Part shown: piece after piece, positions 8,534 through 24,127 of the stretch | Layout of the letters: each line of letters starts with the position of its first letter | Position numbering within the stretch: position 1 is the first letter of the stretch | From: Thermodesulfobacteriota bacterium | GTDB taxonomy: Bacteria > Desulfobacterota > Anaeroferrophillalia > Anaeroferrophillales > Tharpellaceae | Assembly: GCA_024763535.1 (NCBI GenBank) | Contig: JANTFH010000005.1 | Span: forward strand, 4,612-68,611 | Length of the DNA: 64,000 nt | Direction: 5' to 3' | Made by a program: the position numbers and the translations under genes | The notes under the pieces: generated by a model | What the model saw: the letters and a program-made list of their open reading frames with translations, nothing else | What the model was told of the DNA's origin: nothing | Database searches by the model: none

Positions 8534-8562
8534 TTGACATAGGGGGGAGGGGTCGGTATATA
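8534..8562 (+). promoter_or_regulatory. Candidate strong sigma70 promoter for the nuo operon (TTGACA, 17 nt, TATATA)
   Basis: TTGACA at 8534-8539 and TATATA at 8557-8562 with a G-rich 17-nt spacer, about 120 nt upstream of nuoA. Confidence 0.45.
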
Positions 8563-8684: not shown

Positions 8685-9041
8685 ATGTCGCATGATTATA
8701 TTCCCGTTCTGGTAATGATGATTGTCGGTGTTGGTTTCGGTGTTGTGGCCGTGGTCTTATCTCGATTGCTTGGGCCGAACCGGAAATCAAGAGTCAAAAA
8801 AGAGACCTATGAATGTGGTATGACGACGATCGGTGCCTCCTATGTGCAGACGCCGATCAAATATTATGTTGTGGCTCTGTTATTTCTCGTATTTGATCTT
8901 GAATGTGTTTTTCTCTACCCCTGGGCTGTACATTATAAGAGTCTGGGGTTTTTTGGTTTCGTCGAGATGGTCCTCTTTATGGTGGTCCTCTTCGTCTGTT
9001 ATGTTTATGTCTGGAAAAAGGGAGCCTTGGAATGGGAATAG
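8685..9041 (+). CDS. nuoA: NADH-quinone oxidoreductase subunit A
   Basis: 118 aa with 3 transmembrane segments. It contains ECGM and FDLE...LYPWA motifs typical of NuoA. Confidence 0.95.
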
Positions 9042-9562
9042 AGAGTGCATTAAAGGGCGACGGATTCCTGGTCACCAACCTTGAGAGTTTAGTTAACTGG
9101 GGACGTAAGAATTCGATCTGGCCTTGTACCTTCGGTCTGGCCTGATGCGCTTTGGAGATGATGGCTACCAGTTTGGCTAGCTACGATATCGCCCGCTTCG
9201 GTTCCGAAGTTTTTCGGCCGTCGCCGCGTCAGTCCGATCTGATGATTGTTGCCGGTACCCTGACAAAAAAGATGTCGGTAATGGTGCAGAGAATTTATGA
9301 GCAGATGGCGGAGCCCCGCTGGGTTATCGCGATGGGTGCCTGTGCTTCCTGCGGCGGGGTTTTTCAGAGTTATTCCGTGGTTCAGGGGGTCGATCAGGTT
9401 ATTCCGGTTGATGTCTATGTTCCCGGTTGTCCGCCGCGGCCGGAAGCGCTGCTGGCCAGCGTGATGAAACTTCAGGACAAGATTATGAAAGATAAATTCA
9501 GTGATCGTCCTGATTATGAAGAGCCTTCAAGCAGCAAATCCGACATTGTCAGTTTGTGTTAG
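9032..9562 (+). CDS. nuoB: NADH-quinone oxidoreductase subunit B with an in-frame TGA (9143-9145) at the position of the first Cys of the conserved GLACCA N2-cluster ligand motif. Putative Sec-containing NuoB.
   Basis: ATG 9032 overlaps the nuoA stop. The translation reads [47 protein letters not shown]...MGACASCGG...PGCPPRPE. The TGA is in frame with the downstream ORF 9152..9562. Confidence 0.7.
9162..9183 (+). ncRNA. SECIS-like hairpin 16 nt downstream of the nuoB UGA
   Basis: Stem tggctacc/ggctagct, 8 base pairs with one bulged C, and an apical loop aguuu at +27..+31. Confidence 0.3.
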
Positions 9563-9598: not shown

Positions 9599-10096
9599 AT
9601 GGAAAATGCGAAAGTAGTAGAGCAGATTAAAGGTAAATTTGCTGATGCGATCATCGAGGATATCGAGTTTCGCGGCGATTTGACCATCGTGGTCAGTCTT
9701 GAGAAGCTGCATGAGATTATGCTCTATATCCATGATGATGAGTCTTTGCATTACGACCTGTTGTCGGATGTGATCGGGATTGACAGACTGCCCCGTGAGC
9801 CCCGCTTTGAGATTGTCTATGTTCTCCACTCAATGGATGACTTCAGGCGCCTGATGGTCAAGGTTATGGTTGATGTCGATATCGCTGTTCCGACCGTAAC
9901 CGACATCTGGAAATCGGCAGACTGGCCGGAGCGTGAGGTCTATGACCTTCTGGGCGTGAGTTTCAGTGATCACCCGGATCTACGCCGGATCCTGATGTGG
10001 GATGATTTTGATGGCCACCCTTTGCGCAAGGACTTTCCTCTGAAAGGTAAGGACTTCGATAAAAAATGGGACCCATCAACCATTAAGGTTATGTAA
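9599..10096 (+). CDS. nuoC: NADH-quinone oxidoreductase subunit C
   Basis: Contains the NuoC 30-kDa family motifs (DLTIVV...LLSDVIGID...EREVYDLLGV). Confidence 0.9.
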   Translation: MENAKVVEQIKGKFADAIIEDIEFRGDLTIVVSLEKLHEIMLYIHDDESLHYDLLSDVIGIDRLPREPRFEIVYVLHSMDDFRRLMVKVMVDVDIAVPTVTDIWKSADWPEREVYDLLGVSFSDHPDLRRILMWDDFDGHPLRKDFPLKGKDFDKKWDPSTIKVM

Positions 10097-10232
10097 GTTT
10101 AAGGTTTGTGAATTAGAATCTGGTGCCTGCGGATTCCCTTTGATTATGAAAACCGGGGAATATCTTGATGACGGCACTTACTTGCGGGCAACACCCGCGT
10201 TAGTGATAACTATATCATAGAGGTTGGTAGCG

Positions 10233-11405
10233 ATGGCAGAAGGTAAAATATTGACCATCAACATGGGTCCGCATCATCCGGCGACTCACGGGGTCTTGCG
10301 CCTGGTTCTGGAGCTTGATGGCGAGACGATCGTCAAGGTCACGCCCCATATCGGGCATTTGCACCGGGGGATAGAGAAGCTTGCGGAAAACATGAATTAC
10401 CAGCAGGTTATTCCGCTTACTGACCGTTTTGACTACACTGCGGCATCACTCAACAATCTTGGTTACTGTACTGCGGTAGAGAAACTTCTGGGAATTGAAG
10501 TTCCGAAACGGGCTCAGTATATTCGCGTCATCATGTCCGAGCTGGCTCGGATCATGGGTCATCATCTCTGGATCGGCAGCCATGCTCTCGACATCGGGGC
10601 GATGACCGTAGTTTTCTACGCCTTCCGTGATCGTGAAATGATCATGAATATGGTTGAAGAGGTTTCCGGTTATCGTTTAACCCCTTCTTATATGCGGGTC
10701 GGTGGCTTGGCCCGGGATATCACCCCGGAATTCATTCGCTGTCTGCGCGAATTTATCAAATGGTTCCCGACCGCCGTGGCCGGCTACAATACATTGCTGA
10801 CCGATAATATCATCTGGCGCAAAAGAACCCAGGATATTGGGGTTATTTCAGCTGAAGATGCCATTAACTATGGTTTGACCGGGCCTTCGTTGCGGGGCTC
10901 CGGAGTCGCTTATGATCTACGTAAGGTGAAACCTTACAGCAGTTATGATGACTTCGATTTTCAGGTTCCGGTTGGTGACAAGGGTGATGTTTACGACCGT
11001 TATCTGGTGCGCATGGAAGAGTTTATTCAGTCGCTTAATATTATTGAACAGGCGCTTGAAAACTTGCCGGAAGGGCCGGTAAACGTTGATAACCCGCTGA
11101 TCTTCAACCCTCAGATTGAGGATGTGCAGGAAGATATCAGTGCCCTGATCCGTCGTTTTAAGATTCAGTGCCAGGGGCCTGAGATTCCTGAAGGTGAAAT
11201 CTATCATGCGGTTGAAGGGTCCAAGGGTGAACTCGGATTCTATCTGGTTGGTGACGGTACTGAACATCCCTACCGGATGAAGGTTCGCTCCCCCTGTTTT
11301 ATCCTGGTCAGCGCCTTGGAAAAATTGATGCTTGGTCACATGATCGCCGACGCGATTGCGATTATCGGCAGCATCGATATCGTTTTGGGTGAGATTGACC
11401 GCTAG
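10233..11405 (+). CDS. nuoD: NADH-quinone oxidoreductase subunit D
   Basis: NuoD/49-kDa family sequence (ILTINMGPHHPATHGVLRLVLELDGE...IGHLHRG...RVRSPCF). Start taken at ATG 10233, which has a GAGG ribosome-binding site. Confidence 0.95.
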   Translation: MAEGKILTINMGPHHPATHGVLRLVLELDGETIVKVTPHIGHLHRGIEKLAENMNYQQVIPLTDRFDYTAASLNNLGYCTAVEKLLGIEVPKRAQYIRVIMSELARIMGHHLWIGSHALDIGAMTVVFYAFRDREMIMNMVEEVSGYRLTPSYMRVGGLARDITPEFIRCLREFIKWFPTAVAGYNTLLTDNIIWRKRTQDIGVISAEDAINYGLTGPSLRGSGVAYDLRKVKPYSSYDDFDFQVPVGDKGDVYDRYLVRMEEFIQSLNIIEQALENLPEGPVNVDNPLIFNPQIEDVQEDISALIRRFKIQCQGPEIPEGEIYHAVEGSKGELGFYLVGDGTEHPYRMKVRSPCFILVSALEKLMLGHMIADAIAIIGSIDIVLGEIDR

Positions 11406-11493
11406 TTAGGGAAAGTGTAAATTTTTTAAGTTAGTTCGTAAGTTAGTTTGAGTTGCGGAGTCTGTTTTCGCATTAGTGAATGGGAGTCGGTTG

Positions 11494-13446
11494 ATGGCTG
11501 AGATTTTATTTAGTTCCTGGGGTGGCGAGGTAGTTGATAACCGCCAAAAAGATGGCCAGGACTTTGAGCCGGTTAATACAGTTGATTTACCGGAATATTT
11601 CAGACAGGATGAAGCGGTTAAGGCTCTTATGGGCTGGTACGGCATCGTTATTCGTGACCCGGAAACCGATATCGTCGATTTGAGTCGGGTCTATATCCAG
11701 GAAGTTCAGAATAAATCCTGTGGTAAATGTTTTCTCTGTCGGATCGGCACCCGGGTTATGGCTGAGACTCTGACACGAATCTGTAATGGACAGGGCAAAT
11801 CTGAAGATCTTGAAATCTTAAAACGCCTGGCTGATTCAATTCGTGAATCCTCGAAATGTAATATCGGCCAATCCGGGCCCTTGCCGATTCTCGACGCTTT
11901 AGAGCATTTCGCCGCTGATTTCGAAGCTGCAATCAGCGCACAAAAGAGTGTTGCTGCCGGTACCTACCACTCAAAACTGACCGCACCCTGTATGGATGCC
12001 TGCCCGATCCATTTAGATATTCCCAATTATGTAGAGTGTATAAAAGAGGGACGTTTTGCCGAATCGCTTGATATTATTCGGGAAAAACTGCCGTTGCCGG
12101 GAGTTGTCGGCCGCGTCTGTGTGCGCCCCTGCGAAGAGCACTGCCGGCGTATGAATCTTGATGCTCCGATTTCGATCAAATTTCTCAAGCGTTTTGTTGC
12201 CGATTATGAACTGAGCAAAGGCAAAGAGCCTGAATTTGCAATTGAACCTTCAGAAAAAACCGGGAAGGTTGCGATTGTCGGCGCCGGCCCCAGCGGTGCA
12301 ACCTGTGCTTTCCATCTTGCAAAGATGGGCCATGATGTTACCGTTTATGAGCGTTTCGATGAACCCGGCGGCATGTCGGCCATGGGGATTCCTGATTATC
12401 GCCTGCCGCGCCCTATTCTTAGAGAAGAGGTTGACCGCATTGAGCGTATGGGGGCGACCTTTAATTACGAAACCACGGTCGGTAAAGATATTAAACTCTC
12501 CCAGCTTGAAGCCGATAACGATGCCGTGTTTATCGCTATCGGGGCCCAGATGGGTACGACGATGGGGGTTGAAGGTGAAGAAGAGAACTATGCCGGTTAT
12601 ATCTCCGGGGTGCAGTACCTGTTGGATATCAACCAGGGTCGGGATCCTTATCCTGAAGGTAAAAAAGTAGCAGTCATCGGCGGCGGCAACGTGGCGATCG
12701 ACTGTGTGCGCTGCTCCTTCCGGGTGGGCAAGGACGATGTCAATCTTATCTATCGCCGGACCAAAAATGAAATGCCGGCTGATGATGTTGAAATCCATGA
12801 CGCGGAAGAGGAAAAAGTCAATTTTCACTATCTTACGCATCCGGTTAAAATTCTGGCGGAAAACGGTAAAGTTGTTGGTCTGCGCTGTGTTAAAATGGAG
12901 TTAGGCGAGCCCGACGAGAGTGGTCGCCGGCGGCCGCAGCCGATTGAAGGTTCGGAATTTGTTATAGAGTGCGACATTGTGGTCCCGGCGATTGGCCAGA
13001 CGATGGATTTGTCTCTGCTTGAAGGACGTGAAGACGTTAAAACCACCCGCTGGAAAACGATTGTCGTTGACGAAGTAACTAAACAGAGCGACCAGCCGAA
13101 AATCTTCTCCGGCGGTGACTGTGAAACCGGTCCCGGGGCTTTGATTACTGCTTGTGCCGGAGGGCGGACGGCCGCTTTTAATATCGATAAGCTGATCAAT
13201 GGTGAACCGCTGGATTATACCGAAGATGACTATTTTGATAAATTTTTCAGTAAGGTTAAGGTCTTTGACCCGGCTGAAGATATTGGATTCTTAGGCGGTC
13301 GCGAGCGGAAAGAGCTGGAGATGCTTGATCCCGACACCCGCAAATTCACCAACGCTGAAGTGGAACAGGGCTTTTCGATTAACGATGCCATGGCTGAGGC
13401 CGATCGCTGTCTGCGCTGTTATCGGGTGGCAACTGTAAGAGTATAA
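11494..13446 (+). CDS. Fusion iron-sulfur flavoprotein: NuoF C-terminal 4Fe-4S domain joined to a GltD/NfnB-like 2x[4Fe-4S] FAD/NAD(P)H oxidoreductase. It lacks the NuoF FMN/NADH-binding domain.
   Basis: N-terminus SCGKCFLCRIGT...SKCNIGQSGP matches the NuoF 51-kDa C-terminal cluster. It continues with CMDACP...GRVCVRPCEEHC, VAIVGAGPSGATCAF (FAD-binding) and KKVAVIGGGNVAIDC (NAD(P)H-binding), as in the glutamate synthase beta chain family. Confidence 0.8.
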   Translation: MAEILFSSWGGEVVDNRQKDGQDFEPVNTVDLPEYFRQDEAVKALMGWYGIVIRDPETDIVDLSRVYIQEVQNKSCGKCFLCRIGTRVMAETLTRICNGQGKSEDLEILKRLADSIRESSKCNIGQSGPLPILDALEHFAADFEAAISAQKSVAAGTYHSKLTAPCMDACPIHLDIPNYVECIKEGRFAESLDIIREKLPLPGVVGRVCVRPCEEHCRRMNLDAPISIKFLKRFVADYELSKGKEPEFAIEPSEKTGKVAIVGAGPSGATCAFHLAKMGHDVTVYERFDEPGGMSAMGIPDYRLPRPILREEVDRIERMGATFNYETTVGKDIKLSQLEADNDAVFIAIGAQMGTTMGVEGEEENYAGYISGVQYLLDINQGRDPYPEGKKVAVIGGGNVAIDCVRCSFRVGKDDVNLIYRRTKNEMPADDVEIHDAEEEKVNFHYLTHPVKILAENGKVVGLRCVKMELGEPDESGRRRPQPIEGSEFVIECDIVVPAIGQTMDLSLLEGREDVKTTRWKTIVVDEVTKQSDQPKIFSGGDCETGPGALITACAGGRTAAFNIDKLINGEPLDYTEDDYFDKFFSKVKVFDPAEDIGFLGGRERKELEMLDPDTRKFTNAEVEQGFSINDAMAEADRCLRCYRVATVRV

Positions 13447-13532
13447 TGCGGTCCTAAATCCGTGTTGAAGTATAGTTTTGCAAATAGAGTTTTGATTTTT
13501 TTAAGTAAAATTTTTACGCAGGGAAAATTAGC

Positions 13533-16208
13533 ATGGTCACGTTGACGATTGACGGCAAAGAAGTCACCGTCCCCCAGGGAACGACCATCCTTGAGGCGGC
13601 CCGGAGTGTCGATATCAGAATTCCGACACTCTGTTACCACGATCGTTTGAACCCTATCGGTTCATGTCGGATGTGTGTAGTTGAGATCGAAGGTTATACG
13701 CACCCGATGGCAGCCTGTACAACTCCGGTTGATGATGGGATTGAGGTTGTAACTAAATCTGATCGTCTGACTAGGATTCGTCAGGATTCGTTGAAACTGA
13801 TTCTGGTTAATCATCCGCTTGACTGTCCGGTTTGTGATAAGGGCGGCGAGTGCCTGTTGCAGGATTTGACCTACGAATTCGGGATTGATCAGGTTGAGTA
13901 TAAAGCGGCAAAAGTCGAGCGTGAATCACAGTATGCGACTCCGCTGATTCGTTACTGGCCCGACCGCTGTATCATGTGCCTGCGCTGCGTTACCGCCTGT
14001 CAGGAGATTAAGGGAATCGGCGCCATCAGTATTCAGGGAGACGGTTACGGAGCCCAGGTAGTGGCCGTAGATGCCGAGAAGTGTCAATCCTGCGGTGAGT
14101 GTCTGCAGGTCTGTCCGACCGGGGCCCTGACTGAGGATTTGAGCCGTTATAAAGGTCGCACCTGGCTGGTTGACAGAGTGCCGACCACCTGTACCTACTG
14201 CGGTTGCGGTTGTCAGCTTGAACTTAATGTTCAAAATGACCGGGTTATCGCCGTAACCACCCGGGAGGGGGTTGGCGTTAATCATGGCAGTCTCTGTGTC
14301 AAGGGCCGTTTCGGTTACGAATTTATCAACAGTGATGAACGGTTGACCAAACCGCTGATCAAGAAAAACGGCAAATTTGAAGAGGCGAGCTGGGATGAAG
14401 CTCTGGACCTGGTAGCCAGTAAGTTCTCTGCGATCAAAGAGGAACACGGCCCCGGTGCCCTGGCCGGCTTGACCTCGGCCCGTTGTACCAATGAAGAGAA
14501 CTACCTTTTCCAAAAATTTATGCGCGCGGCGGTCGGGACCAATAATGTCGATCACTGCGCCAGGCTCTGACACTCCTCAACTGTGGCCGGACTGGCCGCA
14601 ACGTTTGGCAGTGGAGCAATGACCAACCCGATTGCCGATGTCCTGAAATCAGAGACCGTATTGGTAACCGGAACTAATACCACGGAAAATCATCCGATTT
14701 TCGCCAATTACCTGAAAGAGGCCGTGCTTAAACACGGCACCAAGATTCTGGTGATCGATCCGCGGCGCATCGATCTGGTCGATTACGCCGAGCTCTACCT
14801 CCAGCCGAAACCGGGTACCGATATTGCCTGGATTAACGGTTTGATGCATATTATCATCAAGGAGGGCTGGGCGGCCCAGGATTATATCGACGAACGTTGT
14901 GAAGGTTTCGATGAATTTAAAAGCAATCTCGAAAAATTCACACCTGAATATGTTTCTGGAATTACCGGTCTGACCGAAGATGAGCTCTATGCCGCGGCCA
15001 AACTCTATGGCCAGGCGGCTCCGGCCTCAATCCTTTACGCCATGGGTATCACCCAGCATACCAGCGGTACCGATAATGTTAAATCATTAGGTAACCTGGC
15101 GATGCTTTGTGGTAACATGGGAGTTGCCGGCGGCGGCGTCAATCCGCTGCGGGGCCAGAACAATGTGCAGGGTGCCTGCGATATGGGTGGTCTGCCGAAT
15201 GTCTACACCGGTTATCAGAAGGTCGATGTTGATGAAGTGCGGGAGAAATTCGCCAAGGCCTGGGGGCTTGCGGCGGAGGCTATGGATTCAGCACCCGGTC
15301 TGAAACTGACCGAAATGTTTCCGGCAGCGGCCGAGGGTAAAGTCAAGGCTCTCTATATTATGGGTGAGAACCCGCTGGTCAGTGATCCCGATTTAACTCA
15401 TATTGAACACTGTATCGAAGCCCTTGATTTCTTCGTTGTGCAGGATATCTTTCTAACCGAAACGGCTAAGAAAGCCGATGTCGTGCTGCCCGGAGTCTCC
15501 TTTGCTGAAAAAGATGGAACCTTCGTCAATTCCGAGCGGGTTGTACAGCGGGTTCGTAAAGCATTAACGATTCCCGGCGAAGCTCGTGAAGACAGTGCTA
15601 TTATTGCCGATATCTCAACCCGTATGGGATATGAGATGAAATATGAAAGTGCCGCCGATATCATGAAAGAGATCAACGCTGTGACCCCGAGTTACGGCGG
15701 CATCACTTATGAACGTTTGGAAAACGGCGGCCTGGCCTGGCCCTGCCCCGACAGTGAACATCCCGGGACACCAATTCTGCATGTTGATAAATTTGCCCGC
15801 GGTAAAGGTCTCTTTTTCGCGATAGATCATCAGCCGCCGGCTGAACTCTGCGATAATGAGTATCCGTTTGTACTGTCGACCGGCCGTGTTCTCTCTCATT
15901 TCCATACCGGAACCATGACCCGCAAGGGTTCCGGCCTGAATAAGGTTCATCCTGAAGTCAAGGCTGAGATCAACCCTGAAGATGCCGCGCGTCTGGGGAT
16001 TGAAGCGGATGATCGTCTTAAGATTACCTCCCGCCGGGGTTCGATCGAGGTTAAAGCCATGCTCAGTGACCGTCCGGCAGCCGGGGTGGTATTTGTACCC
16101 TTTCACTTTCATGAAGTTGCAGTTAACCGTCTGACCAACGCGGCTCTCGATCCGGTTGCCAAAATTCCGGAATATAAGGTCTGCGCGATTAAGGTTGAAA
16201 AGGCTTAG
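13533..16208 (+). CDS. fdhA: NuoG/FdhA-like molybdopterin oxidoreductase catalytic subunit (formate dehydrogenase alpha-like) with selenocysteine encoded by in-frame TGA at 14568-14570
   Basis: ORFs 13533..14570 and 14583..16208 are in the same frame. The translation reads 2Fe-2S (CYHD...CRMC), HxxxCxxC, CIMCLRCVTAC, CQSCGECLQVCP, CTYCGCGCQ, then [29 protein letters not shown], the textbook Sec/Cys active-site motif of FdhA/FdhF. Confidence 0.85.
14582..14600 (+). ncRNA. SECIS-like hairpin 11 nt downstream of the fdhA UGA
   Basis: 7-bp stem tgtggcc/ggccgca with loop ggacu at +21..+25. Confidence 0.55.
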
Positions 16209-16265: not shown

Positions 16266-17252
16266 ATGCTGGAATTTATGACCATATTGATAATCAAAAC
16301 GTTGGTGGCATTCACCGTCAGCCTGCTGATTGTGGCCTATTCGACCTGGATCGAGCGTAAAGTTTTGGGTCATGTGCAGCTGCGACACGGGCCGCGTCGA
16401 GTCGGTTTCCATGGTCTTCTGCAGCCTATAGCCGATGGTATCAAAGGTTTTTTCAAAGAGGAGCTGATTCCTGATAACGCCGATAAACCGCTCTTTCTGC
16501 TGGCACCGATTATCAGTATCGGAGCGGCGGTTACATTAATTGTAATTGTTCCTTTCGGGGATAAGATTACCATTATGGGGCACGAAATAACCCTTTATCT
16601 GACTGATCTTGATGTCGGTATTCTCTTCGTTCTCGGAATTTCGACCATCGGCTCCTACGGTGGTATCCTCGGGGGCTGGTCCTCCGGTAATAAATACGGG
16701 GTCATCGGCGGTCTGCGTGGATCGGCCCAGATGATCAGTTATGAACTCTCCCTGGCATTGGCGGTAATTGCTGTAGTTATGGTCAGCGGTTCGTTGAGCC
16801 TGATCGATATCGTTAACTCTCAAACCGGACTCTGGAACATCGTCAAACAGCCGTTTGCCTTTGTCCTTTTTATTATCTGCGGCCTGGCCGAACTCAACCG
16901 GACGCCGTTTGATATGCCCGAAGCCGAGGCCGAACTGGCCTGTGGTTTCAATGTTGAGTACAGTTCCATGAAGTTCGCCCTTTTCTTTATGGCGGAATAC
17001 TGTCATATGTTTGTCTTTGCCGCGCTGGTGACGACCCTCTTCCTGGGTGGTTGGCATGGTCCCTTTATCGACGGGCCGCACTGGTTTTTCCTCAAGTGTT
17101 TTGTGATTATCTTTTTCTGCGTCTGGGAACGTTCGACCTTTCCGCGTTTGCGTTATGACCAGGTTATGAGCTTCGGCTGGAAAATTTTGCTGCCCTTCGG
17201 TCTTCTGAATATTCTTCTGACCGGGCTCTGGATGCTGATTTTCAACATGTAG
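16266..17252 (+). CDS. nuoH: NADH-quinone oxidoreductase subunit H
   Basis: Polytopic membrane protein, 328 aa, with a NuoH/ND1-like sequence (WIERKVLGHVQLRHGP...). Confidence 0.95.
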   Translation: MLEFMTILIIKTLVAFTVSLLIVAYSTWIERKVLGHVQLRHGPRRVGFHGLLQPIADGIKGFFKEELIPDNADKPLFLLAPIISIGAAVTLIVIVPFGDKITIMGHEITLYLTDLDVGILFVLGISTIGSYGGILGGWSSGNKYGVIGGLRGSAQMISYELSLALAVIAVVMVSGSLSLIDIVNSQTGLWNIVKQPFAFVLFIICGLAELNRTPFDMPEAEAELACGFNVEYSSMKFALFFMAEYCHMFVFAALVTTLFLGGWHGPFIDGPHWFFLKCFVIIFFCVWERSTFPRLRYDQVMSFGWKILLPFGLLNILLTGLWMLIFNM

Positions 17253-17306: not shown

Positions 17307-17783
17307 ATGGCTGACAAGGATTACATACTCAATATCAGTGACCGGCGCCCGACGGGTAAATATATCACGCCGATTCTGAAAGGCCTGGGTTACACGCTGA
17401 AGAATTTCTTCAGTAAGCCGATTACGATAAAATATCCGACCGAGCGCCGTGAAGTCAGCGACCGCTGGCGGGGCCTGCATCGTTTGAAAGTGGATGATCG
17501 GGGGGCTTTGAAATGTGTCGCCTGCGGCCTTTGCGCAAAGATCTGTCCGCCTAAGGCGATCACCATTGTGCCCTACGAAGAGGCCGGCGAAACCCGTTAT
17601 CCGAAAGAGTTTGTGATTGACGAGCTGCGTTGTATCTTCTGCGGCTTCTGTCAGGAAGCCTGTCCTAAAGATGCGATTGAGCTGACGAAAGTTTACGATT
17701 TTGTGGATTATAAACGCGAAGACTTTATCTTCGATATCGAAAAACTGAAAACCCCGGAAAAATATATCTTCAACGGCAAATAG
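17307..17783 (+). CDS. nuoI: NADH-quinone oxidoreductase subunit I (2x[4Fe-4S])
   Basis: Two ferredoxin-type motifs, CVACGLCAKICP and CIFCGFCQEACP. Confidence 0.95.
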   Translation: MADKDYILNISDRRPTGKYITPILKGLGYTLKNFFSKPITIKYPTERREVSDRWRGLHRLKVDDRGALKCVACGLCAKICPPKAITIVPYEEAGETRYPKEFVIDELRCIFCGFCQEACPKDAIELTKVYDFVDYKREDFIFDIEKLKTPEKYIFNGK

Positions 17784-17796
17784 TGGGAGTAGATTG

Positions 17797-18306
17797 ATGG
17801 AACTGGTATTTTTGTTGATATGCGGTGGAGTTGCGGTAATCGCCTCGCTGCTGGTTATCTTTGCTCGCTCCACCCTGCACAGTGCCCTGTGGATGGTTCT
17901 CTCCTTTTTTATGGTAGCGATAATCTACGTTCTGCTGCACGCTCAGTTTCTGGCTATGCTTCAGGTTATTGTCTACGCCGGAGCGATTATGATGTTTATT
18001 GTCTACGCCATCATGATGCTGAATCTGCGTCAGGAAGCCAAATCCAAGGTCGCAACCCGAATCTCCAAGGTAGTTGGAGTCGGGGCTCTGATTGTGCTTT
18101 TTCTCGAACTTACTCTGATCGGCGTAAGTCACAATATGGCCACAATACAGGGTCCGGTAACGGATAAGCTTGTGGCCACCTACGGCCGGGTAGCGGTAAT
18201 CTCAAATTTTCTTTTTTCCGACTATCTGCTGCCGTTCGAGGTCGCATCCATTCTCCTGACTGCGGGTGTTGTCGGGGCCGTAGTTCTGGCTAAACGTGAA
18301 AAATAG
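17797..18306 (+). CDS. nuoJ: NADH-quinone oxidoreductase subunit J
   Basis: Hydrophobic NuoJ-like protein in nuo gene order. GGGAG ribosome-binding site before ATG 17797. Confidence 0.9.
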   Translation: MELVFLLICGGVAVIASLLVIFARSTLHSALWMVLSFFMVAIIYVLLHAQFLAMLQVIVYAGAIMMFIVYAIMMLNLRQEAKSKVATRISKVVGVGALIVLFLELTLIGVSHNMATIQGPVTDKLVATYGRVAVISNFLFSDYLLPFEVASILLTAGVVGAVVLAKREK

Positions 18307-18317: not shown

Positions 18318-18623
18318 ATGGTTGATAATCAAAGTATATATCTGACGTTTGCGGTTATTCTGTTTGTCATCGGCGCGGCCGGTGCCATCTGCCGCCGTAA
18401 TGCGATTGTTGTCTTTATGTGTATTGAAATTATGCTGGCCGGAGTCAGTATTGCATTTGTAACCTTCAGTCGTGCCAATCACTCTCTGGACGGTATCTTT
18501 ATGGTTCTGTTTGTTATGGCGGTTGCTGCCGCAGAAGCAGCGGTCGGTCTGGCGATTTTTCTTTTGATGTATCGCAAACAGGGCTCGATCGATCTGGATA
18601 AGTTTAATCTGTTGAAGTGGTAG
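18318..18623 (+). CDS. nuoK: NADH-quinone oxidoreductase subunit K
   Basis: 101 aa with 3 transmembrane segments, NuoK/ND4L-like. Confidence 0.9.
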   Translation: MVDNQSIYLTFAVILFVIGAAGAICRRNAIVVFMCIEIMLAGVSIAFVTFSRANHSLDGIFMVLFVMAVAAAEAAVGLAIFLLMYRKQGSIDLDKFNLLKW

Positions 18624-18724: not shown

Positions 18725-20815
18725 ATGTTCGATTATATCTGGTTGGTACCGGTCTTCCCGGCCATCGGAGTTTTGATCAACGGTCTGCTTGGACGTCGTC
18801 TAGAGGCGATTAACAAGAGTTTGATCCATTGGATCGCCTGCGGTGCGATCGCCCTCTCCTATATCGTTACCTGTACTATTTTCTACCAGCTCCTGCAGCT
18901 CCCTGAAGCTGAACGATTTTATCAGGTGACCTGTTTTTCCTGGATCAACAGCGGGGTCTTACAGACTTATATTGCTTATCAGATTGATCCCCTGTCAATG
19001 ATGATGGCGATGTTTGTTATCGGGGTCGGCTTTCTCATCCATGTCTATTCGATTGGCTATATGGATGGCGATCCGGGTCGTTACTACCGCTTCTTTGTTT
19101 ATTTGAATCTTTTTATGTTCTCGATGATCAATCTGATTCTCGCCAACAACTATCTTTTGATGTTCTTAGGCTGGGAAGGGGTTGGGTTGTGTTCCTATCT
19201 TTTGATCGGCTTCTGGTTTGATGACGAGGCCAATGCAATTGCCGGCAAAAAAGCTTTTATTACCAACCGGGTGGGTGATTTCGCTTTTTTGATCGGGATG
19301 TTTCTGCTCTTTACCGGACTGGGTGAACATGGTGTCTGGAGCCTGCAGTTTAACGAAGTGTTCAGTAACGTTCACTACCTTTCAACCAGTCAGGCAACCG
19401 CCATCTGTCTCCTCTTTTTTATCGGTTGTACGGCCAAGTCAGCTCAGATTCCACTCTATGTCTGGCTGCCCGATGCCATGGCCGGCCCGACTCCGGTCTC
19501 TGCCCTGATCCATGCCGCTACTATGGTGACCTCGGGTGTCTATATGATCACCCGCTCCAATATCCTATATTCTATGTCACCTCTGGCGATGGGGGTTGTG
19601 GCGACGGTTGGAGCTTTGACGGCGCTGTTTGCCGCGTCGATCGGCCTGGTGCAGAATGATATCAAAAAAGTTCTGGCCTATTCAACTGTGAGTCAGCTCG
19701 GTTATATGTTCCTAGGGCTCGGTGTCGGTGCCTTCGCCGCCGGTATGTTTCATGTTTTAACCCATGCATTCTTTAAGGCTCTTATGTTTTTGGGATCTGG
19801 TGCGGTTATTCACTCTATGCATCATGCTTATCATAAAGTGCATTCCCATGATGATGCTCAGGATATGCGAAATATGGGCGGATTGAAGAGTAAGACCCCC
19901 ATAACTTATTGGACCTTTCTGGTTGGCGCATTGGCAATTGCCGGGGTTCCGGGACTTTCCGGCTTCTTCAGTAAGGATGAAATTCTCTGGCAGGCATACA
20001 GCAGTCCACAGGGCCACTGGTTGCTCTGGCTTATAGGTGCAATGGCTGCGGGAATGACTGCATTTTATATCTTCCGATTAATTTTTATGACATTCTTTAA
20101 CGATTGCCGGGCAGGAGACGCGGCTGAGCATATCCATGAATCGCCTCTGACCATGACGATACCGCTGATGGTTCTGGCCGTGCTGGCAGCTTTTGGTGGT
20201 TATCTAGGCGTTCCGCATGCTTTGGGTGGCAGCAATCTTTTTGAGCACTTCCTGGAGCCGGTAATGGGAATGGGTGATGGGAAACTGTTGCAGGATGCCA
20301 CGACTGCGGTTGCCCACGGTGCCCATCATGCCGTGCATGCAGCTGCCGGTCACATTACTGAGGCCGCACACGCTGTTGCCGGGCATGCCGAGGGTGGTGC
20401 CCATCATGTTGGACATGAACCGCTCTGGGTTGAGTATTTATTGATGGCCGTTTCCGTTGCTTTAGCTTTCGGTGGCATCTTTGTCGCCTATATGTTTTAC
20501 ATTGTTAAACGTGAACTGCCGGTGGCTCTGGCGGAGAAATTTTCCTTTATTCACCGTCTGTTGCTGAATAAATGGTATATTGACGAACTCTACGATGTGG
20601 TTATTATTTCACCCCTGCGTGGTTTCAGTTATTTTCTCTGGAAAGGGATTGATGTCGGAGTGGTTGATTACATCGTCAACGGAGTTGCCCGGATAGTTGG
20701 CTGGGGAAGCAGTGCCGTGCGCTACATACAGTCCGGTTATGTGCAGAGTTACGCGGTTTCAGTCGTATTCGGTACGGTGGTGCTGCTGGCCTACTACTTC
20801 TTGAAGGCACTCTAG
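18725..20815 (+). CDS. nuoL: NADH-quinone oxidoreductase subunit L (antiporter-like), with a His-rich insertion
   Basis: 696 aa with NuoL/ND5 motifs (WLPDAMAGPTPVSALIHAATMVTSGVY). His-rich insertion at about 20246..20422. Confidence 0.95.
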   Translation: MFDYIWLVPVFPAIGVLINGLLGRRLEAINKSLIHWIACGAIALSYIVTCTIFYQLLQLPEAERFYQVTCFSWINSGVLQTYIAYQIDPLSMMMAMFVIGVGFLIHVYSIGYMDGDPGRYYRFFVYLNLFMFSMINLILANNYLLMFLGWEGVGLCSYLLIGFWFDDEANAIAGKKAFITNRVGDFAFLIGMFLLFTGLGEHGVWSLQFNEVFSNVHYLSTSQATAICLLFFIGCTAKSAQIPLYVWLPDAMAGPTPVSALIHAATMVTSGVYMITRSNILYSMSPLAMGVVATVGALTALFAASIGLVQNDIKKVLAYSTVSQLGYMFLGLGVGAFAAGMFHVLTHAFFKALMFLGSGAVIHSMHHAYHKVHSHDDAQDMRNMGGLKSKTPITYWTFLVGALAIAGVPGLSGFFSKDEILWQAYSSPQGHWLLWLIGAMAAGMTAFYIFRLIFMTFFNDCRAGDAAEHIHESPLTMTIPLMVLAVLAAFGGYLGVPHALGGSNLFEHFLEPVMGMGDGKLLQDATTAVAHGAHHAVHAAAGHITEAAHAVAGHAEGGAHHVGHEPLWVEYLLMAVSVALAFGGIFVAYMFYIVKRELPVALAEKFSFIHRLLLNKWYIDELYDVVIISPLRGFSYFLWKGIDVGVVDYIVNGVARIVGWGSSAVRYIQSGYVQSYAVSVVFGTVVLLAYYFLKAL

Positions 20816-20895: not shown

Positions 20896-22479
20896 ATGAA
20901 TGAACTAGGTTTTCCGATAATCAGCCTTGTGACCTTTTTTCCGATCTTCGGGGCGTTGATCCTGATGTTTATCGATAAAGAGGCCAAAGATACGCTCCGG
21001 GGCACTGCCATGGTTTTTGCCATGATTGAGTTCTTTATCTCTCTGCCGATCATCTTCGCATTTCAAAGCGGTACTGCAGATATGCAGTTCGTGGAGCGCT
21101 ACACCTGGATTAAGAGTGCCGGTTTAAGTTATTATATCGGTCTGGACGGTATCAGTCTCTGGATCTTTATGCTGACCACCTTCTTAACTCCGATCTGTGT
21201 TTTGTGTTCCTGGAACTATATTCAGAAACGGGTCAAAGAGTTCATGATCTGCCTCCTGTTACTGGAGACGGCCATGCTGGGGGCTCTGGTCTCCCTGGAC
21301 CTGATCCTTTTCTATATCTTCTGGGAACTGATGCTGATTCCGATGTATTTCCTGATCGGAGTCTGGGGTGGAGACAATCGGATCTATGCCGCAGTTAAGT
21401 TTTTTATCTATACCGCCGCCGGTTCGGTCTTCATGCTGCTCTCGATATTCTTTCTCTACTATTACAACCATAAGGTCACCGGCGTCTATACCTTTGATCT
21501 GCTGGAACTTTACAAACTTAATATTCCGGTATCGACCCAGTTCTGGCTCTGTCTGACCTTTTTTGTCTCGTTCGCCATTAAGGTACCGATGTTTCCGCTC
21601 CACACCTGGCTGCCGGATGCTCATGTCCAGGCTCCGACGGCCGGTAGTGTAATTTTGGCAGGTGTTCTCTTGAAAATGGGAACTTACGGTTTCATGCGCT
21701 TTGCGATTCCGCTCTTTCCCTACGCCAGTCATCAGTTTACACCGGTTATTGCGACATTAGCGGTAATCGGCATCATCTACGGGGCTCTGGTAGCCCTGAT
21801 CCAGCCTGATATGAAGAAACTGGTTGCCTATTCCAGTGTCAGTCACTTGGGTTATGTCATGCTCGGTATCTTTGCTTTCAATATGCAGGGGGTTGAGGGT
21901 GGTCTCTATCAGATGCTCAACCATGGTATCAGTACCGGCGCTCTCTTCCTGATCGTCGGTATGCTTTATGAGCGTCGTCATACCCGGATGATCAAGGATT
22001 TCGGTGGTATCGCCAAGGTGATGCCGGTCTATGCCACCTTTTTCATGATTATGACCCTGTCATCAATTGCGGTTCCCGGAACCAACGGTTTCGTCGGCGA
22101 GTTTATGATCCTGGTCGGAGCTTTCCGCTCAATTCCGATGCATGCTGTTTTTGCCACTTCCGGGGCCATCCTCGGGGCGCTTTATATGCTCTGGATGTAT
22201 CAGCGGGTGATGTTTCAGCCCCTCGATAAAGAGGAAAACAAGGTCTTGAAAGATCTCAATGCCCGGGAAATTGTGACTCTGCTGCCGCTGGCGATACTGG
22301 TTTTCGTTATGGGTTTCTTTCCTGGTTATTTCATCAATAAGATGGACGCTTCATGTCAGCACTTCCTGAAAAACTATAATCAGCAGGTGGCCATGTATGA
22401 ACAGCAGGTTGAAGATGGCAGTGCCGCCAAACTGGCCGCGGTGATGAGTGACAATAATTTAGAGAAGAAGATCGACTGA
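20896..22479 (+). CDS. nuoM: NADH-quinone oxidoreductase subunit M
   Basis: 527 aa, NuoM/ND4 family (WLPDAHVQAPTAGSVILAGVLLKMGTYG). Ends in a TGA stop. Confidence 0.95.
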   Translation: MNELGFPIISLVTFFPIFGALILMFIDKEAKDTLRGTAMVFAMIEFFISLPIIFAFQSGTADMQFVERYTWIKSAGLSYYIGLDGISLWIFMLTTFLTPICVLCSWNYIQKRVKEFMICLLLLETAMLGALVSLDLILFYIFWELMLIPMYFLIGVWGGDNRIYAAVKFFIYTAAGSVFMLLSIFFLYYYNHKVTGVYTFDLLELYKLNIPVSTQFWLCLTFFVSFAIKVPMFPLHTWLPDAHVQAPTAGSVILAGVLLKMGTYGFMRFAIPLFPYASHQFTPVIATLAVIGIIYGALVALIQPDMKKLVAYSSVSHLGYVMLGIFAFNMQGVEGGLYQMLNHGISTGALFLIVGMLYERRHTRMIKDFGGIAKVMPVYATFFMIMTLSSIAVPGTNGFVGEFMILVGAFRSIPMHAVFATSGAILGALYMLWMYQRVMFQPLDKEENKVLKDLNAREIVTLLPLAILVFVMGFFPGYFINKMDASCQHFLKNYNQQVAMYEQQVEDGSAAKLAAVMSDNNLEKKID

Positions 22480-22622
22480 TTTAATCTTTATTTAAGGTGG
22501 AACCCGGCCCGAACTGTTTATATTAAGTTTCCGGAAATCCGGGATACATGCCGGCTGGCTTATCCCAGACTGTGCAATATACAAATTATTATATTTTTTA
22601 AGATAAATTTTGGAGGAGAGTG

Positions 22623-24092: not shown

Positions 24093-24127
24093 TTTATGTT
24101 GAGCAGAGTTATCATTAATGTAAAAAA

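What the first reader, a model, noticed from the sequence alone, without database searches (positions are those of the whole stretch)
11494..16208. Complex I operon with NuoE/F/G replaced by a GltD-like flavoprotein plus a Sec-containing formate-dehydrogenase-like subunit
The gene order is nuoA-B-C-D-[NuoF 4Fe-4S tail fused to GltD/NfnB-like FAD/NAD(P)H oxidoreductase]-[NuoG-like with full molybdopterin domain and ...HCARL-U-HS... active site]-nuoH-N, under one promoter and one terminator. There is no nuoE and no NuoF FMN/NADH domain. The NuoG position is occupied by a protein that retains the catalytic Sec and the CxxCxxxC cluster of true Mo/W formate dehydrogenases. Canonical NuoG has lost these. 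This predicts a membrane-bound, proton-pumping formate:quinone (or reverse, quinol-driven CO2 reduction) complex-I-like enzyme with a possible NAD(P)H side entry via the GltD-like subunit, rather than a standard NADH dehydrogenase.
Basis: partly seen in the sequence, partly recalled or inferred. Interest (0 to 1): 0.75.

Follow-up and report, generated by a model that had tools for sequence, protein, structure and literature searches.

The report
Complex I with formate-dehydrogenase input module
This operon encodes a respiratory complex I whose usual NADH-oxidising head (NuoE/F/G) is absent, and in its place sits a two-subunit, selenium-containing, NADP-type formate dehydrogenase, so the proton pump is probably fed by (or, in reverse, makes) formate and NADPH. 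The same operon also puts selenocysteine at a ligand position of the last iron-sulfur cluster, N2.

Summary
One operon (8685-24092, + strand) reads nuoA-B-C-D, X, Y, nuoH-N, with no nuoE and no NuoF FMN domain.

- **X** (11494-13446) is a NuoF-type 4Fe-4S tail fused to a GltD/NfnB-like FAD/NADPH flavoprotein.
- **Y** (13533-16208) is a full FdsA-type Mo/W formate dehydrogenase alpha subunit. It has an in-frame UGA (Sec346), His347, Arg540 and a SECIS match.

X and Y are not new proteins. They match the NADP-dependent formate dehydrogenase pair (Moorella FdhAB / Geobacter SfrAB type), which occurs free in Wood-Ljungdahl gene clusters.

What looks undescribed is their position in the nuoEFG slot. 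This is conserved in 37 independent contigs. In several lineages Y has lost every catalytic residue but kept its Fe-S domains, like NuoG. That argues that X-Y docks on the complex and that X is a conserved NAD(P)H entry.

I infer a reversible formate/NADPH:menaquinone proton pump. This is not shown.

It is conserved, has a SECIS-like hairpin, and recurs in at least 120 metagenome contigs.

Verdict: new variant of a known kind.

The parts
8534..8562 (+). Promoter-like site, TTGACA-17 nt-TATATA, about 120 nt upstream of nuoA
   Evidence: Read directly from the sequence. The generic scan did not flag it, and promoter-like hits across the operon are at chance level. Plausible only.
8685..9041 (+). 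nuoA (118 aa)
   Evidence: Pfam Oxidored_q4, 127 bits.
9032..9562 (+). nuoB (176 aa), with selenocysteine codon U38 at 9143-9145 replacing the first Cys of the tandem-Cys N2-cluster motif (FGLA-U-CALEMM)
   Evidence: Translation. With U read as C, NCBIfam nuoB_fam scores 237.9 bits against a cut-off of 142.7. TGA is conserved in 14 related loci, with a Cys codon in 6 more distant ones. At least 120 further metagenome contigs carry it.
9162..9183 (+). SECIS-like hairpin, 17 nt after the nuoB UGA (UGGCUACCA-GUU-UGG-C-UAGCUA)
   Evidence: RNAfold. A compensatory U:A to C:G change is seen between relatives. Other Sec-nuoB lineages have different hairpin sequences at the same place. In 91 distinct sequences the most stable 30-nt window starts at +13 to +16. 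No Rfam SECIS family matches it.
9599..10096 (+). nuoC (165 aa)
   Evidence: Pfam Complex1_30kDa, 149 bits.
10224..11405 (+). nuoD (393 aa), quinone-reducing type
   Evidence: Pfam Complex1_49kDa, 383 bits. NCBIfam NuoD TIGR01962, 558 bits against a cut-off of 459.
11494..13446 (+). X: FdhB/SfrB-type subunit (650 aa). NuoF-type C-terminal [4Fe-4S] domain (CGKCFLC at residue 76, plus a fourth Cys downstream in KCNIG), then a GltD/NfnB-like part with two [4Fe-4S] clusters, FAD (GAGPSG at 263) and NADPH (GGGNVA at 396, YRR at 420).
   Evidence: Pfam. PDB matches to StnC/NfnA/NfnB and to the NuoF/HydB tail. Motifs. Homologues at 65-83% identity are named 'formate dehydrogenase (NADP+) beta subunit' by JGI. 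The ATG at 11494 has a GGGAG ribosome-binding site.
13533..16208 (+). Y: FdsA/FdhA-type Mo/W-bisPGD formate dehydrogenase alpha subunit (891 aa) with a NuoG-like N-terminal Fe-S domain. Sec346 (TGA 14568-14570), His347, Arg540.
14565..14623 (+). SECIS element at the Y selenocysteine codon
   Evidence: Rfam SECIS_3 (RF01989), 50.4 bits, E = 1.5e-9, below the gathering score of 63. Hairpin.
16266..17252 (+). nuoH (328 aa)
   Evidence: Pfam NADHdh, 404 bits.
17307..17783 (+). nuoI (158 aa, two [4Fe-4S] clusters)
   Evidence: Pfam Fer4 / Fer4_7.
17794..18306 (+). nuoJ (170 aa)
   Evidence: Pfam Oxidored_q3.
18318..18623 (+). nuoK (101 aa)
   Evidence: Pfam Oxidored_q2.
18725..20815 (+). nuoL (696 aa)
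   Evidence: Pfam Proton_antipo_M, _N and _C.
20896..22479 (+). nuoM (527 aa)
   Evidence: Pfam Proton_antipo_M.
22620..24092 (+). nuoN (490 aa)
   Evidence: Pfam Proton_antipo_M, 256 bits.
24122..24156 (.). Intrinsic terminator: A-run, 10-bp stem GGGTATGGAA/TTCCATACCC, T-run
   Evidence: Read directly from the sequence.

Best explanation
The operon encodes a 13-subunit complex I variant. The 11 membrane-arm and quinone-module subunits (NuoA-D, H-N) are canonical. The electron-input module is the two-subunit NADP(H)-dependent, selenocysteine-containing Mo/W formate dehydrogenase of the Moorella FdhAB / Geobacter SfrAB type, instead of NuoEFG.

Proposed mechanism. The gene content is shown; everything below is inferred.
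- Y occupies the NuoG position. It passes electrons from its His-ligated N5-like cluster to NuoI, then to cluster N2 in NuoB (here with Sec at a ligand position), then to menaquinone, driving proton translocation.
- Electrons enter at two sites. One is formate at the Sec/Mo(W)-bisPGD centre of Y, wired through the proximal and ferredoxin-type clusters as in FdsA. The other is NADPH at the FAD of X, wired through its two [4Fe-4S] clusters and the NuoF-type N3-like cluster to the [2Fe-2S] of Y.
- All steps are reversible in principle. With a proton-motive force the enzyme could instead use menaquinol to reduce CO2 to formate or NADP+ to NADPH.
- Comparative data suggest X (NAD(P)H) is the conserved input and formate catalysis is an optional extra that the window's lineage has kept.
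For: **Content and order.** The genes are as stated.

**Y is a complete FDH.**
- Sec346-His347 aligns to the CH dipeptide of FdsA (motif CARVCHS, chain 6tg9_A); numbering this Cys386-His387 is from my own knowledge.
- Arg540 lies in the invariant GVNPLRGQNNVQG motif.
- The Lys in LCVKG, the CxxCxxxC...C cluster, the 2Fe-2S, the HxxxCxxCxxxxxC motif and two CxxCxxCxxxC motifs are all present.
- Rfam SECIS_3 matches at the UGA with E = 1.5e-9.
- TGA is an ordinary stop for 11 of 49 window genes, so the genetic code is not reassigned.

**X is SfrB/FdhB-type.** The Moorella NADPH-FDH beta subunit is encoded by sfrB2, and its alpha subunit by sfrA2 plus fdhF3 (PMC13040438); that this split falls at the Sec codon is my inference, by analogy with the window's ORF split. 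SfrB-like proteins are modular NADPH partners of NuoG-like proteins (PMC3543383). GxGxxA is the NADP-type motif (PMC7483475).

**Docking.**
- X follows nuoD directly in 37 contigs, with X identity from 42% to 96%.
- Where the contig continues, Y and then nuoH follow.
- In Syntrophales loci (L059-61, L068) and a metagenome group (L087, L094, L164, L174), the protein in Y's place keeps every Fe-S motif but has lost Sec/Cys, His and Arg. Its C-terminal identity to Y is 25-38%. A catalytically dead Y makes sense only as a NuoG-like connector.
- L015 shows an intermediate state, Cys-Leu.

**Free X-Y pairs.** These sit in a Wood-Ljungdahl/Hdr context, which supports genuine FDH function for the pair.

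**Energetics (textbook values, my own knowledge).** CO2/formate is about -420 mV, NADP+/NADPH about -320 mV and menaquinone about -74 mV. That gives 250-350 mV per electron pair, in the range complex I uses for about 4 H+ per 2 e-.
Against: - There is no direct evidence that X-Y binds the Nuo core. Co-transcription is also only inferred.
- Free X-Y pairs are 65-70% identical to the window's pair, and nuo-embedded forms are paraphyletic to them in a Y tree. No docking-specific signature was found.
- In solved complex I structures the cluster equivalent to Y's proximal cluster (N7) is about 20 A from N4 and electrically isolated. Mycobacterial complex I showed no formate activity (PMC10068793). 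Wiring of the Mo/W site into the main chain rests only on homology to FdsA.
- No fdhD, sel genes, tRNA-Sec or Mo/W transporter lies in the window.
- The rest of the genome could not be searched for nuoEFG.
- The physiological direction is unknown.
Confidence: 0.6

Rival explanations
1. Co-transcribed but separate enzymes. X-Y is a soluble NADP-dependent formate dehydrogenase, as in Moorella. The 11-subunit Nuo core takes electrons from another donor such as ferredoxin. The genes share an operon only for co-regulation.
For: The same X-Y pair exists free of nuo genes, in Wood-Ljungdahl clusters, at 65-70% identity. The Moorella enzyme is a soluble alpha2-beta2 protein (PMC13040438). The donor of 11-subunit complexes is an open question, and several partners have been proposed (PMC11238625).
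Against: The insertion point is always the nuoEFG slot, between nuoD and nuoH, in 37 contigs across wide divergence. Lineages where Y has lost all catalytic residues but kept its Fe-S domains, and stayed in the slot next to X, are hard to explain if Y is only a soluble FDH.
Confidence: 0.15
2. An NADPH:menaquinone oxidoreductase only. X is the real input and Y serves as the NuoG-like wire. Its formate site either is not connected to the quinone path (as N7 is isolated in canonical complex I) or only equilibrates formate with NADP+ locally.
For: X plus a catalytically dead Y is the commoner state in Syntrophales and in metagenome group 2. N7 is about 20 A from N4 in known complex I.
Against: The window's clade keeps the costly Sec codon with its SECIS, His, Arg, Lys and all five Fe-S motifs, across relatives whose X identity falls to about 55% (L057, L063). 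That is purifying selection on catalysis. In the homologous FdsA the Mo site is wired to the junction.
Confidence: 0.15
3. A standard complex I after all. A canonical nuoEFG set encoded elsewhere in the genome docks on this membrane arm, and X-Y is an accessory or alternative head used under some conditions.
For: Not excluded. Only 64 kb of the genome was available, and split nuo clusters are known (PMC5736913).
Against: No NuoE or NuoF-FMN protein lies in the window. In the NuoD tree the X-Y-type cores are separate from nuoEFG-type cores and close to 11-subunit ones. The Tharpellota description reports only 'complex I'.
Confidence: 0.07
4. Artefact: a chimeric assembly or pseudogenes, with the in-frame TGAs being real stops.
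For: Mechanical ORF calling splits Y into 345 + 541 aa and truncates nuoB.
Against: The same order and the same two TGA positions recur in many independent assemblies. Orthologues carry Cys codons at those positions, and sequence is conserved on both sides of each TGA. SECIS evidence supports both sites.
Confidence: 0.02

Closest known systems
NADP-dependent formate dehydrogenase FdhAB of Moorella thermoacetica (genes sfrB2, sfrA2 + fdhF3) and SfrAB of Geobacter sulfurreducens
   Same: Same two-subunit architecture. The beta subunit is a NuoF-type 4Fe-4S tail plus a GltD-like FAD/NADPH part. The alpha subunit is a NuoG-like Fe-S domain plus a Mo/W-bisPGD domain with Sec. Homologues of X carry this name.
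   Different: Those enzymes are soluble and encoded away from nuo genes, in Wood-Ljungdahl or other contexts. Here the pair sits between nuoD and nuoH of a complete membrane arm and Q-module.
Canonical 14-subunit respiratory complex I (NuoA-N; T. thermophilus, E. coli, M. smegmatis)
   Same: All 11 core Q- and P-module subunits are present in the usual order. Y's N-terminal 210 residues carry the NuoG cluster motifs (N1b-, N4- and N5-like). X carries the NuoF N3-type cluster domain.
   Different: There is no NuoE and no NuoF FMN/NADH site. The NuoG position holds a catalytically complete FDH, which falls below the NuoG equivalog cut-off. FAD/NADPH replaces FMN/NADH. NuoB has Sec at the first tandem Cys.
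NAD-dependent formate dehydrogenase FdsABG(D) of Rhodobacter capsulatus / Cupriavidus necator
   Same: FdsA is the best solved match to Y over its full length (762 bits), with the same catalytic residues and Fe-S complement. It is the soluble 'N-module with a working FDH'.
   Different: FdsA partners with NuoF/NuoE-like FdsB/FdsG (FMN, NAD+), uses Cys rather than Sec, and is not linked to a membrane arm.
Formate hydrogenlyase (E. coli FHL-1/FHL-2) and related formate-driven group-4 hydrogenase complexes
   Same: A complex-I-related membrane module with a Sec-FDH as the electron-input module.
   Different: There the NuoD/NuoB homologues are a [NiFe] hydrogenase that reduces protons. FdhF lacks the NuoG-like domain and docks through HycB. 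Here NuoD is a quinone-type equivalog and no hydrogenase is present.
Complex-I-type enzymes with alternative input modules: Fpo/Fqo (FpoF, F420H2), cyanobacterial NDH-1 (ferredoxin), Campylobacter Nuo (NuoE/F replaced), 11-subunit Nuo of anaerobes
   Same: The same idea: an 11-subunit energy-converting core with an exchangeable electron-input module.
   Different: None of these uses an FDH/GltD-like pair. For the 11-subunit enzymes of anaerobes the donor is still unknown (PMC11238625).
Stn/Nfn-type transhydrogenase StnABC (PDB 8oh5, 9bov)
   Same: It gives the best solved matches to X's GltD-like part, and it joins a GltD-like NADPH module to a NuoG-like Fe-S/molybdopterin-like domain.
   Different: In StnC the two are fused in one chain. 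The molybdopterin-like part is non-catalytic, NuoE/F-like StnA/B are present, and the enzyme is soluble and electron-bifurcating.

Membership tests
Respiratory complex I (NADH:quinone oxidoreductase, NuoA-N) | Eleven core subunits of the quinone and proton-pumping modules (NuoA, B, C, D, H, I, J, K, L, M, N) in one cluster | tested here: met
   Pfam hits for all eleven. NuoD and NuoB pass NCBIfam cut-offs.
Respiratory complex I (NADH:quinone oxidoreductase, NuoA-N) | NuoE ([2Fe-2S] thioredoxin-like subunit) and NuoF with an FMN/NADH-binding domain | tested here: not met
   No such ORF lies in the operon or anywhere in the 64-kb window. X matches only positions 299-410 of the 410-position NuoF model, at 58.9 bits against a cut-off of 558. 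The rest of the genome was not searchable.
Respiratory complex I (NADH:quinone oxidoreductase, NuoA-N) | NuoG: N-terminal Fe-S domain plus a degenerate, non-catalytic molybdopterin-like domain | tested here: not met
   The N-terminal Fe-S motifs are present, but the C-terminal domain is catalytically complete. TIGR01973 NuoG scores 446 bits, below its cut-off of 470, while Fdh-alpha scores 872.8, above its cut-off of 666.
Mo/W-bisPGD formate dehydrogenase alpha subunit (FdsA/FdhA type) | Sec or Cys metal ligand followed by His; conserved Arg; Lys next to the proximal [4Fe-4S]; CxxCxxxC...C cluster; Molybdopterin and Molydop_binding domains | tested here: met
   U346-H347, R540, LCVKG and C220/223/227/255. 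Pfam 282 and 116 bits. TIGR01591 is above its cut-off.
Mo/W-bisPGD formate dehydrogenase alpha subunit (FdsA/FdhA type) | Formate oxidation / CO2 reduction activity; bound Mo or W cofactor | not testable with these tools
   Needs enzyme assays and metal analysis. No fdhD or Mo/W transport genes lie in the window.
NADP-dependent FDH beta subunit (FdhB / SfrB type) | N-terminal NuoF-type 4Fe-4S domain, Fer4_20 di-cluster domain, FAD and NADPH Rossmann folds (GxGxxG, GxGxxA, YRR), encoded next to an FdhA/SfrA-type gene | tested here: met
   Pfam, motifs, PDB matches, adjacency to Y. Homologues at 65-83% identity are named 'formate dehydrogenase (NADP+) beta subunit'. Nucleotide specificity is inferred from motifs only.
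Bacterial selenoprotein (Y and NuoB) | In-frame UGA at a position where orthologues have Cys, with conserved coding sequence on both sides | tested here: met
   Y: TGA in more than 30 loci, Cys in L015. NuoB: TGA in 14 genome loci and 120 metagenome contigs, Cys codons in L014, L015, L059, L063, L064 and L076.
Bacterial selenoprotein (Y and NuoB) | SECIS stem-loop just downstream of the UGA | tested here: met
   Y: Rfam SECIS_3, 50.4 bits, E = 1.5e-9, below the gathering score of 63. NuoB: no Rfam hit, and single-sequence z-scores are weak. However, hairpins of different sequence sit at +17 to +24 in each bacterial lineage, and the most stable 30-nt window over 91 sequences starts at +13 to +16.
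Bacterial selenoprotein (Y and NuoB) | SelA/SelB/SelD and tRNA-Sec in the genome | not testable with these tools
   None lies in the window. The rest of the genome is not available.
Formate hydrogenlyase / group-4 membrane-bound hydrogenase | NuoD homologue is a [NiFe] hydrogenase large subunit; FdhF docks through a HycB-like ferredoxin | tested here: not met
   NuoD is a quinone-type NuoD equivalog, 558 bits against a cut-off of 459. No HycB-like or hydrogenase maturation gene is present.

The most novel reading that the evidence does not exclude
The enzyme is a fully reversible complex I in which the NuoG position is still a working Sec-Mo/W formate dehydrogenase. That would make it a living intermediate of N-module evolution.

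In this Tharpellota-like fatty-acid/aromatic oxidiser it would run backwards. Menaquinol from acyl-CoA dehydrogenase/ETF (genes at 52070-55843), together with the proton-motive force, would drive CO2 reduction to formate. Formate would then be the 'missing' terminal electron sink of this lineage, released to a syntrophic partner.

Selenocysteine at the N2 ligand position in NuoB would tune the last cluster for such low-driving-force, menaquinone-linked, reversible operation.
Probability: 0.2. Interest if true: 0.9.

Novelty: new variant of a known kind. Interest (0 to 1): 0.72.

Why it matters
**1. The electron donor of the 11-subunit core.** The donor for the '11-subunit' complex I of many anaerobes is a long-standing open question (PMC11238625). 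This operon family names an explicit, genetically linked input module and makes the question testable.

**2. A series resembling NuoG's proposed origin.** The loci run from a Sec-FDH (window clade), through Cys-Leu (L015), to fully degenerate NuoG-like proteins (Syntrophales, metagenome group 2), all in the same slot. That is a natural series resembling the proposed origin of NuoG from a formate dehydrogenase. The difference is a GltD-like NADPH flavoprotein in place of NuoEF.

**3. Consequences for anaerobic energy budgets.** A membrane-bound, proton-coupled formate/NADPH:menaquinone enzyme would change energy budgets for complete oxidisers and syntrophs. Run in reverse, it would be a proton-motive-force-driven CO2 reductase.

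**4. Selenocysteine at cluster N2.** Sec at a ligand position of N2, the cluster that reduces quinone, is widespread in metagenomes. It occurs in X-Y-type, 14-subunit and 11-subunit clusters and apparently in eukaryotic NDUFS7. I could not find it described. It offers a natural probe of N2 chemistry.

Tried and rejected
**Scans and folds that gave little**
- The promoter/terminator consensus scan over 8100-24400 was at chance level: 23 promoter-like sites against 21 expected, and 24 terminator-like sites against 19.7 expected. It also missed the obvious terminator after nuoN, so I read the ends by eye.
- Single-sequence folding of the two UGA-downstream regions gave weak z-scores of -0.54 and -1.0. 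This was not decisive, so I replaced it with comparative tests and Rfam.
- Rfam found no SECIS family at the nuoB UGA.
- Among 20 eukaryote-like Sec-NDUFS7 contigs, Rfam found only one 3'-UTR SECIS_1 hit, in L153 (34.9 bits against a gathering score of 35).

**Literature**
- None described an NADP-FDH or GltD-like pair inside a nuo operon.
- None described a Sec-containing NuoB/NDUFS7.
- Pereira et al. 2011 (PMC3119410) and Zuchan et al. 2021 are not held, so prior mention cannot be excluded.
- The Lost City Chloroflexi fdhA-nuoG-hoxFE cluster is an ordinary FdsABG-type enzyme, not this arrangement.

**Hypotheses considered and rejected**
- Genetic-code reassignment of TGA: rejected, because 11 of 49 genes end in TGA.
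- FHL-type hydrogenase complex: rejected, because NuoD is a quinone-type equivalog.
- Assembly chimera: rejected.

**Inconclusive**
- Distance trees of Y and NuoD are NJ trees with midpoint rooting on biased samples. They cannot decide between replacement of NuoEFG and independent acquisition.
- No docking-specific signature distinguishing nuo-embedded from free X-Y pairs was found.

Full report
**1. Observation**

All ORFs from 8685 to 24092 lie on the + strand with short gaps. Pfam assigns them as follows:
- NuoA (8685-9041)
- NuoB
- NuoC (9599-10096)
- NuoD (10224-11405)
- NuoH (16266-17252)
- NuoI, NuoJ, NuoK
- NuoL (18725-20815)
- NuoM
- NuoN (22620-24092)

Two genes lie between nuoD and nuoH.

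X (11494-13446, 650 aa; the ATG has a GGGAG ribosome-binding site) has three Pfam domains: NADH_4Fe-4S (residues 65-145), Fer4_20 (163-242) and Pyr_redox_2 (258-555).

Y (13533-16208) is a single 891-codon frame with one in-frame TGA at 14568-14570, in the context HCARL-U-HS. It carries Fer2_4, NADH-G_4Fe-4S_3, a Fer4 dicluster, Molybdop_Fe4S4, Molybdopterin (282 bits) and Molydop_binding (116 bits).

No NuoE, no NuoF FMN domain, no sel gene and no tRNA is present anywhere in the 64 kb.

A clean intrinsic terminator (24122-24156) follows nuoN. A TTGACA-17-TATATA site lies at 8534-8562. The generic scan was uninformative.

**2. What X and Y are**

*Y.* Against solved structures, Y aligns end to end (residues 2-888) with R. 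capsulatus FdsA (6tg9_A, 762 bits). It aligns only through its N-terminal half with NuoG (M. smegmatis 8e9g_G, 278 bits).
- In the FdsA alignment the UGA codon falls on the catalytic Cys of the CARVCHS motif, with the following His conserved. This is Cys386-His387 in the numbering I recall, which the tool output does not give.
- The Arg of GVNPLRGQNNVQG is also conserved.
- NCBIfam puts Y above the Fdh-alpha equivalog cut-off (872.8 against 666) and below the NuoG cut-off (446 against 470).
- Motif counting gives a [2Fe-2S] site (C34/45/48/62), the His-ligated HxxxCxxCxxxxxC site, two CxxCxxCxxxC sites and the proximal CxxCxxxC...C site. This is the FdsA-type complement.
- Rfam SECIS_3 matches 14565-14623 (50.4 bits, E = 1.5e-9, below the gathering score of 63).

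*X.* X's GltD-like part is closest to StnC/NfnA/NfnB chains. Residues 26-153 match the C-terminal 4Fe-4S domain of NuoF/HydB/StnB.
- It has the N3-type CxxCxxC motif plus a fourth Cys downstream.
- It has a GxGxxG FAD motif.
- It has a GxGxxA plus YRR NADPH-type motif (motif meaning from PMC7483475).
- Database homologues at 65-83% identity are named 'formate dehydrogenase (NADP+) beta subunit'.

*The pair.* The Moorella thermoacetica NADPH-dependent FDH has exactly this make-up. Its beta subunit is sfrB2 and its alpha subunit is sfrA2 plus fdhF3 (PMC13040438); I take that split to be at the Sec codon, which the paper does not state. SfrB-like proteins are known as modular NADPH partners of NuoG-like proteins (PMC3543383). 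X-Y is therefore a known enzyme pair.

**3. Comparative evidence**

A scan of one genome per species with X returned 80 loci, all from uncultured Desulfobacterota-like MAGs plus one labelled Slackia. The closest are 'Proteobacteria bacterium S015_14' (96%) and Ca. Tharpella (86-90%).

Synteny analysis shows nuoD followed directly by X in 37 contigs. Where the contig continues, Y and then nuoH follow.

Other loci carry X-Y without nuo genes. In L032 the pair sits beside HdrA-like, MetV/MetF and CooC-like genes, which is a Wood-Ljungdahl context.

The active site of the protein in Y's position varies between lineages:

| State | Loci |
|---|---|
| Sec-His...Arg | window clade, L014, L057, L063 |
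| Cys-Leu | L015 |
| Sec/Cys, His and Arg all lost, every Fe-S motif kept (C-terminal identity 25-38%) | Syntrophales L059-61, L068; metagenome group L087, L094, L164, L174 |

This last state is what canonical NuoG looks like. A catalytically dead Y retained next to X in the nuoEFG slot is the strongest argument available here on two points. It indicates that the pair is a structural part of the complex. It also indicates that X is a conserved NAD(P)H input.

In a NuoD distance tree the X-Y-type cores are separate from nuoEFG-type cores and interleaved with 11-subunit cores. In a Y tree the nuo-embedded forms are paraphyletic to free pairs. 'Replacement of NuoEFG' is therefore not established. 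Independent capture of an FDH by an 11-subunit core is equally possible.

**4. Mechanism (inferred)**

By homology with complex I and FdsA, there would be two entry routes converging on one chain.
- NADPH route: NADPH reduces the FAD of X. Electrons then pass through X's two [4Fe-4S] clusters and its N3-like cluster to Y's [2Fe-2S].
- Formate route: formate reduces the Sec-Mo/W centre of Y. Electrons pass through the proximal and ferredoxin-type clusters.
- Common path: both routes meet at the N4/N5-like clusters and continue to NuoI (N6a/b), NuoB (N2) and menaquinone.

With textbook potentials (formate about -420 mV, NADPH about -320 mV, menaquinone about -74 mV; my own knowledge), either donor gives enough driving force for proton pumping. 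The reverse reaction is feasible with a proton-motive force.

The window also encodes acyl-CoA dehydrogenase/ETF, multihaem cytochromes and an MtrB/PioB-like porin. The Tharpellota description reports beta-oxidation, 'complex I' and no identified terminal reductase (PMC9213671). Both a forward role (formate/NADPH to quinone to an extracellular acceptor) and a reverse role (quinol to formate) are therefore conceivable.

Caveats:
- In solved complex I the N7 cluster is about 20 A from N4, and mycobacterial complex I has no formate activity (PMC10068793).
- Docking is not shown.
- The rest of the genome is unseen.

**5. A second selenocysteine, in NuoB**

The nuoB frame (9032-9562) contains TGA at 9143-9145, exactly at the first Cys of the conserved tandem-Cys motif (FGLA-U-CALEMM). 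These are ligands of cluster N2 according to established complex I structures (my own knowledge).

Evidence that the codon is read as Sec:
- The TGA is conserved in 14 related loci, while six more distant orthologues have TGC/TGT.
- A hairpin 17 nt downstream (9162-9183) shows a compensatory U:A to C:G change between relatives.
- TGA is a normal stop for 11 of 49 genes in the window.
- Across 91 distinct bacterial sequences the most stable 30-nt window starts at +13 to +16 from the UGA. The mean there is -9.4 kcal/mol, against about -5 along the rest of the gene.
- Different lineages have different hairpin sequences at that place.

Every hit translates to a full-length NuoB with U at this position. 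These contigs come from:
- X-Y-type clusters
- nuoEFG-type clusters (L096, L135, L182)
- 11-subunit clusters (L119, L134, L160)
- about 20 NDUFS7/PSST-like sequences on contigs without nuoA/nuoC neighbours, some with apparent introns. One of these has a eukaryotic SECIS_1 hit in its 3' UTR (L153, 34.9 bits).

I found no description of a Sec-containing NuoB/NDUFS7. This is only as strong as the library searched.

**6. Comparison with known systems and novelty**

The parts are known: the 11-subunit complex I core and the NADP-FDH FdhAB/SfrAB pair. The combination is analogous in logic to Fpo/FpoF, cyanobacterial NDH-1, Campylobacter Nuo and formate hydrogenlyase.

Placing a working FDH with a GltD-type flavoprotein in the NuoEFG position of a quinone-reducing complex I was not found in ten full-text searches and fifteen papers. 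The Tharpellota paper called the cluster simply NADH dehydrogenase.

I rate it a new variant of a known kind, with interest 0.72. It bears on the unknown donor of 11-subunit complex I, on NuoG evolution and on formate-linked energy conservation, and it comes with an apparently undescribed selenoprotein site at cluster N2. Function, docking and direction remain to be shown.

Noticed in passing
window 9143-9145 (nuoB, 9032-9562, +): An in-frame TGA sits at the first Cys of the tandem-Cys N2-cluster motif of NuoB (FGLA-U-CALEMM). It is conserved in 14 related loci, with Cys codons in more distant orthologues, and a SECIS-like hairpin lies at 9162-9183. Mechanical ORF calling truncates the gene to 9152-9562.
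   Followed up: yes
L081-L200 (metagenome contigs): Sec at this NuoB position is widespread. I found no literature on a Sec-containing NuoB.
   Followed up: partly
L085, L086, L092, L095, L106, L108, L116, L122, L124, L127, L142, L147, L153, L166, L168, L175, L195, L197: About 20 of the Sec-NuoB hits look like mitochondrial NDUFS7/PSST (MTFGLA-U-CAVEMMH). They lie on contigs without nuoA/nuoC neighbours and have long N-terminal extensions; some frames are interrupted as if by introns. L153 has a eukaryotic SECIS_1 hit in the 3' UTR (824-895, 34.9 bits). This may be a eukaryotic (algal?) selenoprotein form of a complex I core subunit.
   Followed up: partly
L083 (6244-8472), L103, L111, L129, L155, L170, L181: In the metagenome group whose nuo-embedded Y is catalytically dead, a separate Sec-containing FdhF-like FDH (without the NuoG-like domain, preceded by an Fe-S protein) lies just upstream of nuoA. 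Formate dehydrogenase genes therefore keep turning up beside this kind of nuo cluster, in different arrangements.
   Followed up: partly
L015 (12107-14785) and L028 (3974-6646): Intermediate active sites. The nuo-embedded Y of L015 has Cys-Leu instead of Sec-His. The free Y of L028 has Ser-His, which is SfrA-like and probably not an FDH.
   Followed up: partly
window 3746-4975 (+), 5887-8100 (-), 56431-57441 (+), 57456-59357 (+): Multihaem c-type cytochromes (c554-like, c7/c3-like, paired CXXCH) and an MtrB/PioB-like outer-membrane porin. These suggest extracellular electron transfer in this organism. The 737-aa cytochrome is divergent from the nuo operon.
   Followed up: no
window 52070-55843 (-): A long acyl-CoA dehydrogenase (571 aa, with a C-terminal AcylCoA_dehyd_C domain) lies next to EtfA/EtfB. 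This is a quinone-reducing beta-oxidation entry that would fit reverse operation of the nuo-FDH complex.
   Followed up: no
window 45117-46829 (-): A single 570-aa ORF fuses ribose-5-phosphate isomerase B (LacAB_rpiB, residues 10-145) to serine hydroxymethyltransferase (161-536). This is an unusual fusion.
   Followed up: no
L076 (MAG labelled Slackia heliotrinireducens, mine water): nuoA-D followed by an X homologue (42% identity) and a NuoG/FdhA-like N-terminus, in a MAG labelled as an actinobacterium. If the label is right, the X-type input module is not confined to Desulfobacterota-like lineages. The contig ends inside Y.
   Followed up: no
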